64,000 bases of DNA, taken from assembly GCA_964544145.1 (NCBI GenBank), contig CAZJAT010000003.1:7804-71803 (forward strand). The letters run 5' to 3'. Below are positions 5,796 to 41,518 of the stretch, one piece after another. A program made the translations under genes and the position numbers. The first letter of the stretch is position 1. Each line of letters starts with the position of its first letter. Under the pieces are notes generated by a model. It saw only the letters and a list, made by a program, of their open reading frames with translations, did no database searches and was not told the DNA's origin. Origin of the DNA: an uncultured Bacteroidales bacterium. GTDB taxonomy: Bacteria > Hydrothermota > 32-111.

Positions 5796-6693
5796 TGATT
5801 ATTTCCTTTACTAGAGGATGACGTATTATGTCCCTCGGTTTCAATTTTATTGATTCAATTCCAATTATCTCTTGAGTTAATTTATTCAACTCTATTAATC
5901 CGCTTTTCTGATTCCTATCCAGATCAGTCTGTGTAATATCACCCGTTATGATTACCTTTGAATTCATTCCCATTCGTGTGATAAACATCTTCATTTGCTT
6001 TGATGTAGTATTCTGTGCTTCATCCAGAATAAGATAACAATTAGACAATGTCCTTCCTCTCATATATGCCAGCGGGGCAATTTCAATAATCTCCTCATTA
6101 ATAAATCTCTCTACTCTGTCTCGTTCAAGCATTGAATGGAGAGCATCATACAATGGTCTTAAATATGGGTCAATCTTATCTTTCAAATCACCGGGCAGGA
6201 ATCCGAGTTTTTCTCCTGCTTCTACAGCAGGCCTGGTCAATATAATCTTCTTTATATTCCTGTTTAGCAACTCATTTAATGCCTTTGCTACAGCAAGAAA
6301 TGTCTTTCCTGTTCCGGCAGGTCCTATGGCAATAACGATTTCATTACTCATTAGGGCTTTCATATACTCTTTCTGCCCTTCAGTCCTCGGTTTTATAATA
6401 CGTTTAGGGAAATGGAAAACCAATTCATTGTTTACAGATCTGTTTTTTATCTTTGAAATAATACTTATAACATCACTTCTCTCAATAAATCCCCTATTGA
6501 GTTCAATGTCATTCAATTCATTTATAATGGAACATATTTCTTCATTTGCTAAAATATAATCAGTATCTGCATCCTTGATAATCTTACCTTCAACATTGGA
6601 TAATATTAATTCAGTAAAATCATTGTGTTTGCTAATAAATGAAATAATTAATTCTTTCTGTTTCATAATAAAAAAATAATGATTTTGGAGCAA
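5758..6693 (-). CDS. phoH: PhoH-like ATPase (YbeZ)
   Basis: 311 aa with a Walker A motif 'GPAGTGKTFLAV' and an overall PhoH-family sequence. Confidence 0.85.
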   Translation of the reverse strand: MLQNHYFFIMKQKELIISFISKHNDFTELILSNVEGKIIKDADTDYILANEEICSIINELNDIELNRGFIERSDVISIISKIKNRSVNNELVFHFPKRIIKPRTEGQKEYMKALMSNEIVIAIGPAGTGKTFLAVAKALNELLNRNIKKIILTRPAVEAGEKLGFLPGDLKDKIDPYLRPLYDALHSMLERDRVERFINEEIIEIAPLAYMRGRTLSNCYLILDEAQNTTSKQMKMFITRMGMNSKVIITGDITQTDLDRNQKSGLIELNKLTQEIIGIESIKLKPRDIIRHPLVKEIINAYDKSSSEQNS

Positions 6694-6742
6694 AAATGCT
6701 CCAAAATCATTATTATTTGCATTGTTTGACTATTTACGCTGC

Positions 6743-12083: not shown

Positions 12084-12151
12084 GCAACCTCCCGAATTTG
12101 TTATTTCTGATTTTATCCAATTAATAATTCACTGTCAACACATCTTTGTAT

Positions 12152-12432
12152 AGGGCCGGGTGTCTATTTTTGTAACCTTTTATTACGTTTATTGCATTAT
12201 TGCGATTGAGTCATTTTAAGTTAAGTTATTACATTAGTTCGTAATGTAATAAATTTTAAAAATTTAATTATAATAATATTGGAAATATTTTTTTTTGCAA
12301 ATCTGCAAATAAATTAAATCTTCTTAAGCAATCTATTAGAATGATTTACGGTATTGAAATATATATTTGATTGCTTTTATATTTGAAAATTTGCTAAATG
12401 CGAAAAGGTTACAAAAATAGACACCCGGCCCT
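12152..12432. mobile_element. miniature non-coding element bounded by perfect 30-bp inverted repeats (MITE-like/REP-doublet derivative of the RAYT element at 40445..41377)
   Basis: 12152-12181 reads AGGGCCGGGTGTCTATTTTTGTAACCTTTT and its exact reverse complement lies at 12403-12432. The 221 bp between them are AT-rich with no ORF. The repeats differ at only 3 positions from the repeats flanking the transposase gene at 40.4-41.4 kb. Confidence 0.6.
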
Positions 12433-12480
12433 GTTAGGTATTGACATATATTTCTATTGTGGTATATTAATAATCAATAT

Positions 12481-14669: not shown

Positions 14670-17600
14670 ATGCTTGATTTTTTTTCAAAAGATCCTGCTA
14701 AGATAATTGAGAAATGCAATAAATTAAGATTAGAGGGCAAATACGATAAAGCTGAGCAAATTCTCAGAAAAAATATCAAAAACACCCCTGATGATTATCT
14801 TTTTCTGCTTGAGTTGGGTAGAGTACAATTTGAACAGGATAAGTTATTTGAATCAGTTGCTTCATTTAAAAGCGCTTATTATCAGAAAGCAGATGCGATA
14901 AATAACATCATTGATGTTGTTGAGGACATTCATTTCAGAAGTGAAAATAAAGAATACACAGGAAAATTACTGATTGAATTATATATTAAGAAAAAAGATT
15001 CAGACAATATTCATAAAATCATTAAGACCATATCCAAAGAAGCAGTCGAACGTATTAACAATGATACGAAGAAAAAGTACCTCACAATTAAAAAGGATAG
15101 ACCCGCATCGGGTCTCACAAAGAAAGATGTAGATATATTCATTATGACGGGTATGCTGGCTATTGTGACAAAGGACTTTGAAACAGCTGAAAATGCTTTT
15201 TCAGCAGTATTTAAGAATAAACCCATTGAGCGAAATTTTATTTTACAGCAATATATGGAAGCGACACAGTATAATTATTCAGAACCGGAACCTTTCATGA
15301 CTATTGGCGACTTTTATATGATAATGGGAGAAAAAGATAAGGCAATCAATTTCTTTCAGAGAGCAATAAAGCTTAATCCGGATCTTAAAGACATTGTTGC
15401 AACAAAACTTGATGAAATAGTCAGCAATACAGACAATCTGTCTGAGACAGGAAAATTCTCAGCTGCTGATGTATACGTGAACAAAGGCGACCTGGCAAAA
15501 GCAGCAATGATATTAAGCAATCTCATTGATGAAGGCATTACAGATGTTGATGGCGTTATTAAAAGGCTTAGGAATATACTTGCTAAGACTAATAATAATA
15601 TTGAAACAACCAGGATTCTCATAAAAGCAGTAATGGTTAAAAAGGATTTTGAGCAGGTTATTATTCTTCTCAATAGAATATTTGAATCAGACAAAATGCA
15701 GACTGATTATATTCTAGGAGTTATAACTCAAATAGAGGAAAATGATTTCAGTTTAACTGACAAGGATATACTCAAAGCAAGGGTGTTTACAGAAATAGAC
15801 AAAACAGAAGATGCTGCGAAAATTCTTAAATCTATTTACGACACAGATAAGGATTCTGCATATGATATAGAGGATACTGTCAATATAATACTGGATAAAG
15901 AGAATCAGAACATAACTGCACTGACATTACTTATGTCAATATTCATTGATAGAGCTCAATTACCGAAAGCAAAAACTCTACTATCATTTACTGACTCGCT
16001 GGAAGACGAGAAATTCAATGAGTTTTCAAGATATCATTATGAGATACTCAATGAAAAATATCCTGATGATCTTGAATTGAAATTACCTCTTGCAATTGCA
16101 TACATTCGGAAAAACAATATAGAAAAAGCATCCAAACTGATTAATTCAATTATTACTGCCGATCCTGACTTATTCTACGAAATTGCCCCTCATCTATTTG
16201 AACCCTCTTCATCAGACACGGAAATTGCAAAGGGAATCCTTCATATTCTGGAATCAGTCGACCATGATAGCATAGACAAATATCTCTATGAATTTACTAT
16301 TGCTGAGGTTGCTTACCTTGCAGGGGATGTCAAACAATCATTGGATAGGGTTCTCAGACTTTTTGAGGAATATCCCGACAATGAAGAGCAATTGATGGGT
16401 ATTATTGACAGGATGTCGCAAAAATACAGTGATAATCAGGAAATAAAAGAATTTGAGTTTAAATTTTATGTAAATAAGAAGGAATACGACAAAGCATTAA
16501 CTGCGGTAATTGCCCTCTCTTCCAATAAAGAGGTAATGGGTCATGTACTTGATGATTTATATTTACTGCACAAGCATGTCCCCGATAATTATGATGTAAT
16601 GATGAATATTCTCAAAGTACTTGATGATATGGGTATGTATGAGAAAATGATTTCAGAAGCAAAAACATTTGTTGAACGCGTACCTCAAGAAAGATCCGGT
16701 TTGGTAAGATTCTATATAGGGAAATCCTATGCAAAGCGCGGTCAGGTAAATGATGCAGCTACATACATATTCCAGGCAATAACTCTGGAAGATACGATAA
16801 TTGAAGAGGCTATTCTGATATTGGTTGATCTACTCAAAATTGATTATTCATCAATAAAATTGCACTATTCGCTGGCTCATGCTTATCAGAAAAATAATGA
16901 TATTGACAAAGCTATTGATGAATTGATGGAGATTTACCGAATTGATGACAAACAGATTGATATAGTGTTGAGGGATCTTGATATTTTTCATGATACAGTA
17001 AAATCCAATCCCAAATTATTATTTGCAATTGGTCAGCTTAAGATGAAGAAAATTGAATATACAGAGGGTGTTGAAAGGCTGATGGAATCGTATCGGTTGG
17101 ATAATTCATATATGGACCCTGTACTCAATCTATTGAAAACAATGCAGGAAACTGAAAACATTGAAAGCGGAGAGATACTCTTCACTATGGGTACATTATA
17201 TGCAGATAAAGGAATGTATAAGATGGCATCTGATCATTTATACAATGCCATGTCCATTGAGACATCATTAAAAGAACAAGTGATAAACAAATTACAGGTT
17301 ATTATTAATAAACAACCGGAAGAAATCTATGCCAGATACTCATTGACACAGGTTTACAGTGATATGCATAATTATATTCAAGCTATACAATTGTTAAGAC
17401 AAATTGAAACAATAAATCCTTCTGAGAGTGAAAACATTATTGAATATTATAATTCAATGCTTGCCATAGAACCGCAGAACACTTCACTGCTTCTCTCTCT
17501 TGGTGATTCTTATCTTAATACAGGGAATGAATCAGCAGGGATGGATATATACAGCAAAGCAATAGCTGCTGATAAAAATCTTCCCGACACTGTCATAGAG

Positions 17601-40359: not shown

Positions 40360-40444
40360 TTTATAACTCCTTAATAATTAAAATATATGAAATTATTAAA
40401 AAAATTACATTAACATAATGCCCCATTCTTGTCAATATATATAT

Positions 40445-41377
40445 AGGGCCGTATGTCTATTTTTGTAACCTTTTTATAATAGAATTAACTGTTTTTCTTG
40501 AAAGTTTCAAAGTAAAAGCAATTTCTGATTGTTTGAATCCTAAATTATATAAAGAAAATATTAGTATATTTCGTTTATCAATAATTCCCCTATTCCATTT
40601 TTTGTTATAAAGTATACTATCATTGATATTTAGCTGCTTACAGAGTGTATTTATAGATATTTGAATATTCTTAGATTTCGTCCTTCTTCTATTAGGATTT
40701 CTTTGTTTATATCTACTATAATTTCTTTTGTTTATTGTCAAATAATCATCTTCAGTCCCCACATAATATTCTTCTTTATTATAATAACTTTCAATTTCTT
40801 TATTTATCTTATTTTCATCTATAAATCTCGTTATTTTTATTTTTGTTGATTTTTTCCGTTTCATTTTATATATATGTGCGCTTGAGTATGCATATTCATA
40901 TGGATATTTTACAATATGCGTTCTTATGGGATTGTCATGTATATAAGCTATAACCGAATTGTAGTAAAACTCTCCTAGGATAATAAATGATTTATATCTT
41001 CCCTGAAACACATGTCCACAAAGTGAATATTTCTCATTAAAATACATTGCATATATCGTATTTATTCTGTGCATGAATCCTGATATATCGAGCGTTTTCC
41101 TTCTAATTAGAAGGTGTACATGATTTCTCATTAAACAATATGCGATTACCTCAACATCATATTGAGTTAAAGCATAATTAGCAATTTCGCAATATTTATC
41201 CATATCATATTTGGAAAAGAATATTGGATTTTTTCTCTGTCCTCTTGAAATTATATGATAAACTGAACCTTCTATTTCCAGTCTCGTATCTCTCGCCATA
41301 TAAACCCCCTTTTGTTATATTTTACTTATTTTTTGACAAAATGCAATAAAAGGTTACAAAAATAGACATACGGCCCT
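40445..41377. mobile_element. RAYT/IS200-family Y1 transposase element bounded by perfect 30-bp terminal inverted repeats
   Basis: 40445-40474 reads AGGGCCGTATGTCTATTTTTGTAACCTTTT and its exact reverse complement lies at 41348-41377. The enclosed single gene encodes an HUH Y1 transposase-like protein. Flanking sequence is TATA-rich on both sides, which may be a target duplication. Confidence 0.7.
40457..41299 (-). CDS. REP-associated tyrosine transposase-like (Y1 HUH, IS200/IS605 Transposase_17 family) with C-terminal HTH extension
   Basis: 280 aa. The N-terminus matches RAYT signatures in order: 'YHIISRGQRKNPIF', 'AYCLMRNHVHLLI' (HUH), 'GHVFQGRYKS' and 'YIHDNPIR' (catalytic Tyr region). The extra ~110-aa basic C-terminus ends in the HTH 'FKQSEIAFTLKLSRKTVNSIIKRL'. 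The stop codon lies inside the left inverted repeat. Confidence 0.75.
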   Translation of the reverse strand: MARDTRLEIEGSVYHIISRGQRKNPIFFSKYDMDKYCEIANYALTQYDVEVIAYCLMRNHVHLLIRRKTLDISGFMHRINTIYAMYFNEKYSLCGHVFQGRYKSFIILGEFYYNSVIAYIHDNPIRTHIVKYPYEYAYSSAHIYKMKRKKSTKIKITRFIDENKINKEIESYYNKEEYYVGTEDDYLTINKRNYSRYKQRNPNRRRTKSKNIQISINTLCKQLNINDSILYNKKWNRGIIDKRNILIFSLYNLGFKQSEIAFTLKLSRKTVNSIIKRLQK

Positions 41378-41518
41378 ATATATTGTAACAAAATATGATA
41401 TAATGCGTATTAATAATCAACGACGGAGGCATTAATCAGAAACGATAAGGAAATTGTACAGGACATTCTTGATGGTAATAAGGGTTCATTTTCATTACTT
41501 ATTGACCGCTATGAGCAT

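What the first reader, a model, noticed from the sequence alone, without database searches (positions are those of the whole stretch)
40445..41377. RAYT-family (IS200-like Y1 HUH) transposase with extra C-terminal HTH, enclosed by perfect 30-bp terminal inverted repeats
The encoded 280-aa protein has all the REP-associated tyrosine transposase hallmarks (YHIISRGQRKNPIF, AYCLMRNHVHLL, GHVFQGRYKS, YIHDNPIR). Canonical IS200/IS605 and RAYT proteins are about 150 aa and their elements lack terminal inverted repeats, instead using subterminal hairpins or REP palindromes. Here there is an additional basic ~110-aa C-terminus ending in a clear HTH. The gene is bounded by an exact 30/30 inverted repeat (AGGGCCGTATGTCTATTTTTGTAACCTTTT). 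The stop codon is encoded inside the left repeat. Together this looks like an undescribed architecture for a Y1-transposase element, or a domesticated derivative.
Basis: partly seen in the sequence, partly recalled or inferred. Interest (0 to 1): 0.7.

Follow-up and report, generated by a model that had tools for sequence, protein, structure and literature searches.

The report
Known TIR-flanked tyrosine transposase gene (TIRtron)
This is a real RAYT-like tyrosine-transposase gene with a DnaA-type DNA-binding tail, framed by perfect 30-bp inverted repeats, but the layout was already described in 2013 as a "TIRtron" encoding a "TIRYT", so it is a new member of a known and very widespread kind.

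Summary
A 280-aa ORF (40457-41299, minus strand) lies between perfect 30-bp inverted repeats, and its stop codon sits inside the left arm.

The claim of an "undescribed architecture" does not hold:
- Di Nocera et al. 2013 named such loci TIRtrons and their proteins TIRYTs.
- Quentin et al. 2018 placed them in TnpAREP subclass 2.1, which carries HTH or DnaA_C tails.
- A profile search finds over 5,000 protein clusters at E<=1e-30, and the 150 best listed are mostly full-length.

Findings added here:
- The locus is syntenic in two relatives. The protein is only 53-56% identical, yet the repeats are 25-29/30 identical and change in both arms together.
- A gene-less 281-bp pair of the same repeats lies at 12152-12432, next to tRNA-Met.
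- A WOR-3 relative carries two copies of a 111-nt repeat-pair element.
- The repeats contain tandem half-sites that could be binding boxes for the DnaA-like domain.

The most likely reading is a vertically inherited, RAYT/REPIN-like system. Binding, cleavage and mobility were not tested.

The parts
40445..40474 (.). Gene-distal (3') terminal inverted repeat arm, AGGGCCGTATGTCTATTTTTGTAACCTTTT. It contains the stop codon (40457-40459) and the last five codons of the gene.
40457..41299 (-). TIRYT gene, 280 aa. It has a Y1 HUH nuclease domain, a disordered basic linker and a DnaA-domain-IV-like DNA-binding domain.
40865..41299 (-). Region coding for the Y1 HUH domain (about residues 1-145). It includes the HUH motif H60/H62, Q99, the catalytic Tyr119 within YIHDNP, and the serine motif S139/S140.
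40460..40672 (-). Region coding for the C-terminal helical DNA-binding domain (about residues 210-280), which has a DnaA domain IV-like fold.
41300..41347 (-). Leader between the upstream arm and the ATG, with an RBS (AAGGGGG). The orthologs carry a TTGACA-N17-TA(C/T)AAT promoter at the same place.
   Evidence: The promoter is read from the sequence only and was not flagged by the scan.
41348..41377 (.). Gene-proximal (5') terminal inverted repeat arm, a perfect complement of the 3' arm.
12152..12432 (.). Gene-less 281-bp TIR dimer (E2). Two arms (12152-12181 and 12403-12432) have the same 30-mer except GG for TA at positions 8-9 in both arms. The 221-bp AT-rich spacer shows no remnant of the gene.

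Best explanation
The locus is a TIRtron. It consists of a single TIRYT gene (TIR-associated tyrosine transposase, TnpAREP subclass 2.1) bracketed by its cognate 30-bp terminal inverted repeats, in an uncultivated AT-rich bacterium related to candidate division WOR-3.

Shown:
- The protein has a TnpAREP-like Y1 HUH nuclease domain with all catalytic residues intact, plus a DnaA-domain-IV-like DNA-binding domain.
- The repeats are the most conserved DNA in the locus across orthologs, and their two arms evolve in concert.
- The same repeats occur as a gene-less dimer elsewhere in the window.
- A relative carries two near-identical copies of a 111-nt dimer of TIRYT-type repeats.

Inferred mechanism:
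- The DnaA-like domain reads the two tandem half-sites in each arm (TGTCTAnnnnTGTAAC here; CTTGAAAAA x2 or TTGACAT x2 in relatives).
- The HUH domain nicks one strand at or near the G-rich outer end (GGGCCG, a variant of GGGGWSAS), using Tyr119, when the DNA is single-stranded and the arms can pair.
- As with RAYT and REPIN, the enzyme stays put and is inherited vertically. The short repeat dimers are what get copied or maintained.
- Because the 5' arm sits just upstream of the gene's own promoter, binding there would also autoregulate the gene.
For: Identity of the protein:
- Pfam Y1_Tnp E 1.1e-15.
- NCBIfam RAYT model 58 bits, well above the IS200 model at 20.6 bits.
- A profile search of PDB gives 4ER8 as best hit.
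- H60, H62, Q99, Y119, S139 and S140 are invariant in 23 family members.

Flanking repeats:
- Nearly every close family member whose flanks could be read carries 26-40-bp flanking inverted repeats. One (L012) shows none and one (L014) lies at a contig edge.
- The outer motifs grade from GGGGTCAG through GGGGACGG and GGGGCCGG to AGGGCCGT.

Literature match.

Vertical inheritance:
- The position between the ECF sigma gene and nuoE/nuoF-like genes is the same in L001 and L002.
- There the neighbours are 72-83% identical and the TIRYT 53-56% identical.

Repeat conservation:
- The repeats are 25-29/30 identical, against 64-65% DNA identity for the ORF and 74% for nuoF.
- 7 of 8 substitutions among 4 repeat pairs fall in both arms.

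Tandem half-sites:
- Mean best tandem match is 4.86 of 6, against 3.82 +/- 0.12 in shuffles.
- 9 of 35 arms have perfect 6-mers repeated at a 7-10 bp period, against 1.7% in shuffles.

Non-autonomous copies:
- E2 in the window.
- Two copies about 98% identical of a 111-nt dimer, with different flanks, in L089.

Low copy number: each protein cluster was seen on 1-3 contigs.
Against: - No binding, cleavage or transposition has been demonstrated for any TIRYT in the searchable literature.
- Quentin et al. doubted that the HTH reads the TIR, because GGGGWSAS does not resemble a DnaA box.
- The window TIR does not match GGGGWSAS exactly.
- Only 64 kb of the genome is visible, so the genome-wide copy number of the gene and of the repeats is unknown.
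- Scans for the TIR in GTDB representative genomes and in JGI metagenomes found nothing.
- The dimers in L088 and L089 have repeat sequences different from those of the TIRtrons in the same organisms, so the cognate relationships are unproven.
- Concerted change of the arms could come from gene conversion rather than from any function.
Confidence: 0.8

Rival explanations
1. It is an autonomous insertion sequence. The whole 933-bp unit (TIR, gene, TIR) transposes as one piece, using the Y1 enzyme together with TIR recognition by the HTH. It would then be an unrecognised IS type rather than a domesticated locus.
For: - The unit is compact, with TIRs directly framing a single transposase-like gene.
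- More distant family members sit in unrelated genomic contexts.
- A few relatives lie on plasmids.
- E2 looks like a MITE derivative.
Against: - The gene sits at the same chromosomal position in three organisms whose neighbouring genes are only 72-83% identical.
- There is one gene copy in 64 kb, and each protein cluster was seen on 1-3 contigs.
- No target-site duplication was found.
- E2's interior shows no relic of the gene.
- Published analyses find such genes to be single-copy and not transposing as units.
Confidence: 0.1
2. It is a fully exapted DNA-binding regulator or insulator. The repeats would be operator arrays for the DnaA-like domain, placed just upstream of outward-facing promoters (nuoE operon, ECF sigma gene, tRNA-Met, the 856-aa gene). 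The protein would control or insulate those promoters, with no DNA mobilisation at all.
For: - The outer end of the arm lies 8-9 bp from a conserved TTGACA on the nuoE side in the window, L001 and L002.
- E2 is flanked by two outward promoter-like sites scoring 11 of 12.
- The repeats are far more conserved than the surrounding spacers.
- The C-terminal domain has a DnaA-IV fold.
Against: - The HUH histidines and the catalytic tyrosine are invariant across the family, which is not expected for a pure DNA binder.
- The promoter scan did not flag the outward promoters around the gene-bearing element at its threshold.
- Near-identical 111-nt dimers at two unrelated sites in L089 indicate copying, not just regulation.
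Confidence: 0.08
3. The inverted repeats act at the RNA level, as a long-range stem enclosing the mRNA or as a terminator, and have nothing to do with the enzyme.
For: The arms are perfectly complementary and co-vary.
Against: - In L001 and L002 the 5' arm lies upstream of the gene's own predicted promoter, so it would not be part of the mRNA.
- No terminator-like sites were found.
- No Rfam family matches.
- The association of such repeats with this protein family holds across many phyla while the repeat sequence changes.
Confidence: 0.02

Closest known systems
TIRtron / TIRYT (Di Nocera, De Gregorio & Rocco 2013, BMC Genomics 14:522)
   Same: - A RAYT-like Y1 HUH gene, longer than RAYTs, is flanked by long terminal inverted repeats that are not REP hairpins.
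- The 3' repeat overlaps the end of the gene.
- The outer end of the repeat is G-rich.
- The same repeats also occur elsewhere as dimers.
   Different: - The outer motif here is AGGGCCGT, not GGGGWSAS.
- The host is an uncultivated WOR-3-like lineage that was not sampled in 2013.
- Three points shown here do not appear in the passages of that paper retrieved here: syntenic conservation of the locus, concerted change of the two arms, and tandem half-sites inside the repeats.
TnpAREP subclass 2.1 (Quentin et al. 2018, BMC Genomics 19:475)
   Same: - These are the longest TnpAY1 proteins.
- They have a C-terminal HTH related to Bac_DnaA_C, HTH_23 or HTH_28.
- They have a serine motif after the catalytic tyrosine.
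- No REP sequences lie nearby.
   Different: - Phylogenetic placement within 2.1.1 or 2.1.2 was not tested here.
- The window protein itself reaches no Pfam HTH threshold. The domain is seen through its fold and through family members.
REPtron / RAYT-REPIN system (Nunvar 2010; Bertels & Rainey 2011; Ton-Hoang 2012; structure 4ER8)
   Same: - The catalytic domain has the same fold.
- The gene is low-copy and vertically inherited, and is flanked by inverted copies of a repeat.
- That repeat also exists as gene-less doublets able to form long hairpins.
   Different: - The repeats are not self-complementary REPs and lack the GTAG tag.
- The protein has an added dsDNA-type binding domain.
- It scores below the NCBIfam RAYT cut-off (58 against 80 bits).
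- Repeat abundance appears low.
IS200/IS605 TnpA (e.g. ISHp608, 2VHG)
   Different: - IS200/IS605 elements have subterminal hairpins and no TIRs.
- Their TnpA is about 130-155 aa with no HTH.
- They are multi-copy.
- The NCBIfam IS200 model scores only 20.6 bits, against a cut-off of 55.

Membership tests
TIRtron / TIRYT (Di Nocera 2013) | The protein is homologous to RAYT/TnpAREP, with the HUH motif and catalytic tyrosine conserved. | tested here: met
   Y119 aligns with Y115 of 4ER8, whose Y115F form is the catalytic mutant (PMC8266576).
TIRtron / TIRYT (Di Nocera 2013) | The gene is flanked by long terminal inverted repeats instead of REP hairpins. | tested here: met
   The inverted repeat is 30/30 perfect. 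Single arms do not fold, dG 0.
TIRtron / TIRYT (Di Nocera 2013) | The outer end of the TIR carries a GGGGWSAS motif. The paper says some TIRs share it and others are unrelated to each other, so it is frequent but not obligatory. | tested here: not met
   The window arm starts AGGGCCGT. Relatives form a graded series GGGGTCAG, GGGGACGG, GGGGCCGG, AGGGCCGT. This is a variant of the motif, not an exact match.
TIRtron / TIRYT (Di Nocera 2013) | The protein is longer than RAYTs, and the TIR may overlap the 3' end of the gene. | tested here: met
   280 aa, against 165 aa for 4ER8. The stop codon lies inside the arm.
TnpAREP subclass 2.1 (Quentin 2018) | There is a C-terminal HTH domain related to Bac_DnaA_C, HTH_23 or HTH_28. 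| tested here: met
TnpAREP subclass 2.1 (Quentin 2018) | There is a conserved serine motif shortly after the catalytic tyrosine. | tested here: met
   S139 and S140 are invariant in alignment A2.
TnpAREP subclass 2.1 (Quentin 2018) | The protein falls phylogenetically inside the subclass 2.1 clade. | not tested
Canonical RAYT / REPtron | The gene is flanked by palindromic REP sequences carrying a GTAG tag. | tested here: not met
   The arms are not self-complementary. The window arm has ATAG where L001 has GTAG, and there is no hairpin.
Canonical RAYT / REPtron | The protein reaches the NCBIfam REP_Tyr_transpos equivalog score of 80 bits. | tested here: not met
   58.3 bits.
Canonical RAYT / REPtron | The gene is single-copy and vertically inherited. 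| tested here: inconclusive
   Synteny is conserved in three organisms and there is one copy in 64 kb. The whole genome could not be seen.
IS200/IS605 insertion sequence | The TnpA reaches the transpos_IS200 cut-off of 55 bits, and the element has subterminal hairpins, no TIRs and multiple copies. | tested here: not met
   20.6 bits. TIRs are present. Only one gene copy is seen.

The most novel reading that the evidence does not exclude
In this WOR-3-like lineage the TIRYT and its repeats may form a long-lived, vertically inherited RAYT/REPIN-like partnership.
- The DnaA-domain-IV tail would read two tandem boxes in each arm.
- The two arms of every pair would be kept complementary by pairing-dependent processes, even while orphan dimers drift in sequence.
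- The dimers would sit preferentially just upstream of -35 boxes (tRNA-Met in three genomes; nuoE and the sigma gene), so that they double as promoter-proximal architectural or regulatory sites.

If true, this would give the first mechanistic handle on the uncharacterised TIRYT class. It would also answer the doubt raised in 2018 about what its HTH recognises.
Probability: 0.3. Interest if true: 0.5.

Novelty: new member of a known kind. Interest (0 to 1): 0.27.

Why it matters
TIRYTs are a very large family. More than 5,000 protein clusters at 50% identity match at E<=1e-30, and about 27,600 match at E<=1e-10. No function has been shown for them in the literature searched here.

This locus adds no new architecture. 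It does offer a clean natural experiment:
- Three syntenic orthologs in which the repeats are almost frozen and co-vary while the gene diverges.
- Gene-less repeat dimers, including a duplicated 111-nt element in a relative.

Together with the tandem half-sites and the DnaA-IV fold, this gives a concrete and testable binding model for the class. It also supports the view that TIRYT and TIR are analogous to RAYT and REPIN. As a finding in its own right it is ordinary.

Tried and rejected
- **TIR pattern scans.** The exact pattern GGGCCGNNTGTCTANNNNTGTAACCTT gave 0 hits in GTDB representative genomes and 0 in JGI metagenomes. Genome-wide copy number therefore could not be obtained.
- **Exact-protein look-up.** The window protein is not on record in the contig index.
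- **Looser 16-mer match at 15785-15800.** It lacks the GGGCCG end and lies in coding sequence, so I rejected it as chance.
- **Target-site duplication (TA/TATA).** The ATATAT flanks in the window are not reproduced in L001, L002 or E2. Rejected.
- **E2 as a deletion derivative of the gene-bearing element.** blastn and tblastn find nothing beyond the arms plus 3 nt and one 11-mer. Not supported.
- **Orthology of E2 with the L088 dimer.** The proximal arm aligns at about 60%, but the AT-rich interiors do not align convincingly. Left open.
- **Promoter scan.** It did not flag the outward promoters next to the gene-bearing element. That claim rests only on reading conserved TTGACA boxes.
- **Rfam.** Only tRNAs matched.
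- **Phage and plasmid collections.** Relatives are rare: 1 of 50,697 phage records and 12 of 72,556 plasmid records.

Full report

Yes. The 30-mer AGGGCCGTATGTCTATTTTTGTAACCTTTT occurs at 40445-40474 and, perfectly inverted, at 41348-41377.

The repeat finder extends the match to 36/36 because ATATAT happens to flank both arms. The stop codon and the last five codons (KRLQK*) lie inside the left arm. None of 100 dinucleotide-preserving shuffles gave a single match, against 4 matches in the window. A whole-window scan finds only two long perfect inverted repeats: this pair and a second one at 12152-12432.

**2. What the protein is**

- Pfam Y1_Tnp matches residues 13-123 at E 1.1e-15.
- The NCBIfam RAYT model scores 58.3 bits, below its 80-bit cut-off. 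The IS200 model scores only 20.6 bits.
- A profile of 23 full-length relatives finds E. coli TnpAREP (4ER8) as the best solved structure.
- In that alignment the invariant Tyr119 (YIHDNP) aligns with Tyr115 of 4ER8. Y115F is the published catalytic mutant (PMC8266576).
- H60 and H62 (the HUH motif), Q99, Y119 and S139/S140 are invariant across the family. The nuclease is therefore under selection.
- Residues 194-209 form a disordered basic linker.
- Family members hit HTH_23 (8 of 23), HTH_38 (7 of 23) and HTH_28 (4 of 23). More distant full-length relatives carry Pfam Bac_DnaA_C.

**3. How general the architecture is**

- Nearly every close family member whose flanks could be read is bracketed by 26-40-bp inverted repeats, often overlapping the stop codon. 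One (L012) shows none and one (L014) lies at a contig edge.
- In GTDB genomes at least 548 loci encode relatives.
- Among the best 80 of these, most proteins of about 275-325 aa are framed by repeats beginning GGGGTCAGG(T/C)CTTGA. They come from many phyla, including Geobacter, Syntrophales, Burkholderiales, Nitrospirae, Elusimicrobiota, Binatia and Marinifilum.
- A profile search of 1.84 billion representative proteins gives 5,152 clusters at E<=1e-30 and 27,607 at E<=1e-10. The 150 best listed are mostly full-length, 260-330 aa.

**4. What the literature says**

This layout is published.

- Di Nocera et al. 2013 (PMC3733652) reported RAYT-like genes flanked by long TIRs rather than REPs. They named the loci TIRtrons and the proteins TIRYTs. 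They noted a frequent outer motif GGGGWSAS, TIRs that overlap the 3' end of the gene, and moderately abundant TIR families occurring as singles, dimers and clusters.
- Quentin et al. 2018 (PMC6006769) equated TIRYTs with TnpAREP subclass 2.1. These are the longest proteins of the superfamily. They have C-terminal Bac_DnaA_C, HTH_23 or HTH_28 domains, a serine motif after the catalytic tyrosine, and no REPs nearby.
- Only these two works mention TIRYT in the searchable library, and none reports biochemistry.

The descriptive part is right.

**5. What this locus adds**

*(a) Vertical inheritance.*
- Orthologs at 56% and 53% identity (L001, L002) occupy exactly the same position, between an ECF sigma gene and nuoE/nuoF-like genes.
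- The neighbours there are 72-83% identical.
- More distant members lie in other contexts. Relocation therefore happens only over long time spans.

*(b) Repeat conservation.*
- The repeats are the best-conserved DNA in the locus. They are 29/30 and 25-26/30 identical to the window's.
- By comparison, DNA identity is 64-65% for the ORF, 74% for nuoF and 65-75% for the spacers.

*(c) Concerted change of the arms.*
- Among the four repeat pairs (window element, E2, L001, L002), 7 of 8 substitutions occur in both arms.
- Two of these (positions 8-9) lie between the G-rich end and the first half-site.
- This points to pairing-dependent homogenisation or selection, as described for REPINs, rather than mere shared protein specificity.

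*(d) Gene-less dimers.*
- E2 (12152-12432) has the same arms with GG for TA in both. Its 221-bp spacer shows no relic of the gene.
- E2 would form a very stable snap-back as single-stranded DNA: dG -58 kcal/mol, z -10.
- E2 sits between two outward promoter-like sites scoring 11 of 12, one for tRNA-Met and one for an 856-aa gene.
- At the orthologous tRNA-Met locus, the L001 organism carries a different dimer (GGGGCCAGGTTGACATTTTGACAG, 156-nt spacer).
- A WOR-3 MAG carries GGGGACGGAGTTTGGAATTTTGGATTTTTT with a 51-nt spacer.
- The WOR-3 element is present twice within 2.5 kb, in opposite orientation. The copies are about 98% identical including the spacer and have unrelated flanks. It has therefore been copied as a unit.

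*(e) Tandem half-sites.*
- Each arm has two direct half-sites 7-10 bp apart, for example CTTGAAAAA twice or TTGACAT twice. Here they are TGTCTA-N4-TGTAAC.
- Across 35 arms the enrichment over shuffles is clear: 4.86 against 3.82 +/- 0.12, and 9 of 35 perfect against 1.7%.
- This gives the DnaA-like domain a plausible target. It also addresses the 2018 objection, which considered only the GGGGWSAS end.

**6. Mechanism**

Shown:
- the folds;
- intact catalytic residues;
- conserved, co-varying repeats;
- copied dimers in a relative;
- stable chromosomal position.

Inferred:
- The C-terminal domain binds the tandem boxes.
- The HUH domain nicks near the G-rich outer end on single-stranded or paired-arm DNA, through Tyr119.
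- The dimers, not the gene, are the units that spread or are maintained.
- Binding at the 5' arm, which lies directly upstream of the gene's own promoter (TTGACA-N17-TATAAT in L001 and L002), autoregulates the gene.

Rivals:
- *An active IS.* This is disfavoured by the synteny, the single copy and the lack of a target-site duplication.
- *A pure regulator or insulator.* This is disfavoured by the invariant catalytic residues and by the copied dimers.
- *An RNA-level stem.* This is disfavoured because the 5' arm lies upstream of the promoter, and no terminators or Rfam families are found.

**7. Verdict**

The feature is real and was correctly described. It is an ordinary new member of a known and very widespread kind (TIRtron/TIRYT, TnpAREP subclass 2.1), found in an uncultivated WOR-3-like lineage with 33.6% G+C. 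Its value lies in comparative clues for a class that still lacks any experimental characterisation. Interest is low to moderate.

Noticed in passing
window 12152-12432: A second, gene-less pair of the same 30-bp repeats (GG instead of TA at positions 8-9 in both arms). It is 281 bp long and lies between the divergent promoters of an 856-aa beta-helix protein gene and tRNA-Met.
   Followed up: yes
window 12226-12252: A perfect 11-bp stem with a 5-nt loop (TTATTACATTA-GTTCG-TAATGTAATAA) inside the spacer of the gene-less dimer. Its function is unknown.
   Followed up: no
window 40360-40444, 41378-41420, 12110-12138, 12441-12468; L001 3853-3890; L002 931-965: Each repeat arm abuts an outward-facing promoter-like site. 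GGCCCT-N8/9-TTGACA is conserved on the nuoE side in three organisms, and the same spacing occurs before the tRNA-Met promoter. The consensus scan flagged only the two sites around the gene-less dimer.
   Followed up: partly
L089 2886-2996 and 5381-5491: Two copies, about 98% identical, of a 111-nt element in a WOR-3 MAG. Each has 30-bp inverted arms GGGGACGGAGTTTGGAATTTTGGATTTTTT and a 51-nt spacer. They lie in opposite orientation with different flanks, like a MITE or REPIN. The arms differ from those of that genome's TIRtron (L008).
   Followed up: partly
L088 2260-2469: At the orthologous tRNA-Met locus of the organism that carries L001 there is an inverted-repeat dimer of different sequence (GGGGCCAGGTTGACATTTTGACAG, 156-nt spacer). 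It could be an ortholog that has drifted or an independent insertion at the same spot. This was not resolved.
   Followed up: partly
L002 position 1; L004 1-940; L006 1710-1739: Three short-read (Logan) contigs begin or end exactly at a repeat arm. One contig is precisely the repeat-to-repeat segment. This is probably a de Bruijn graph break at an inverted repeat of about k length, but it could also hint at extra repeat copies or at inversion.
   Followed up: no
L020, L021, L026, L027, L045, L047, L055, L077: Relatives of about 257-266 aa, mostly from Syntrophomonas and other Bacillota (one MAG, L047, is labelled Deltaproteobacteria), are flanked by arms that are themselves hairpins with a GGGACGTTC loop (for example CCAACAGAGGGACGTTCTTTTTGTTGG). 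These are REP-like rather than TIR-like. The ~186-aa Fictibacillus relatives show no flanking repeat.
   Followed up: partly
window 6671-6718: A 22-nt-arm palindrome, 95% complementary with a 4-nt loop. It is probably a terminator or an operator.
   Followed up: no
L061, L071, L039, L086: Some TIRtrons (Desulfoscipio, Alloalcanivorax venustensis, Marinifilum, a Clostridia MAG) have extra copies of their own repeat within a few kb of the gene. This agrees with the published report of TIR clusters.
   Followed up: partly
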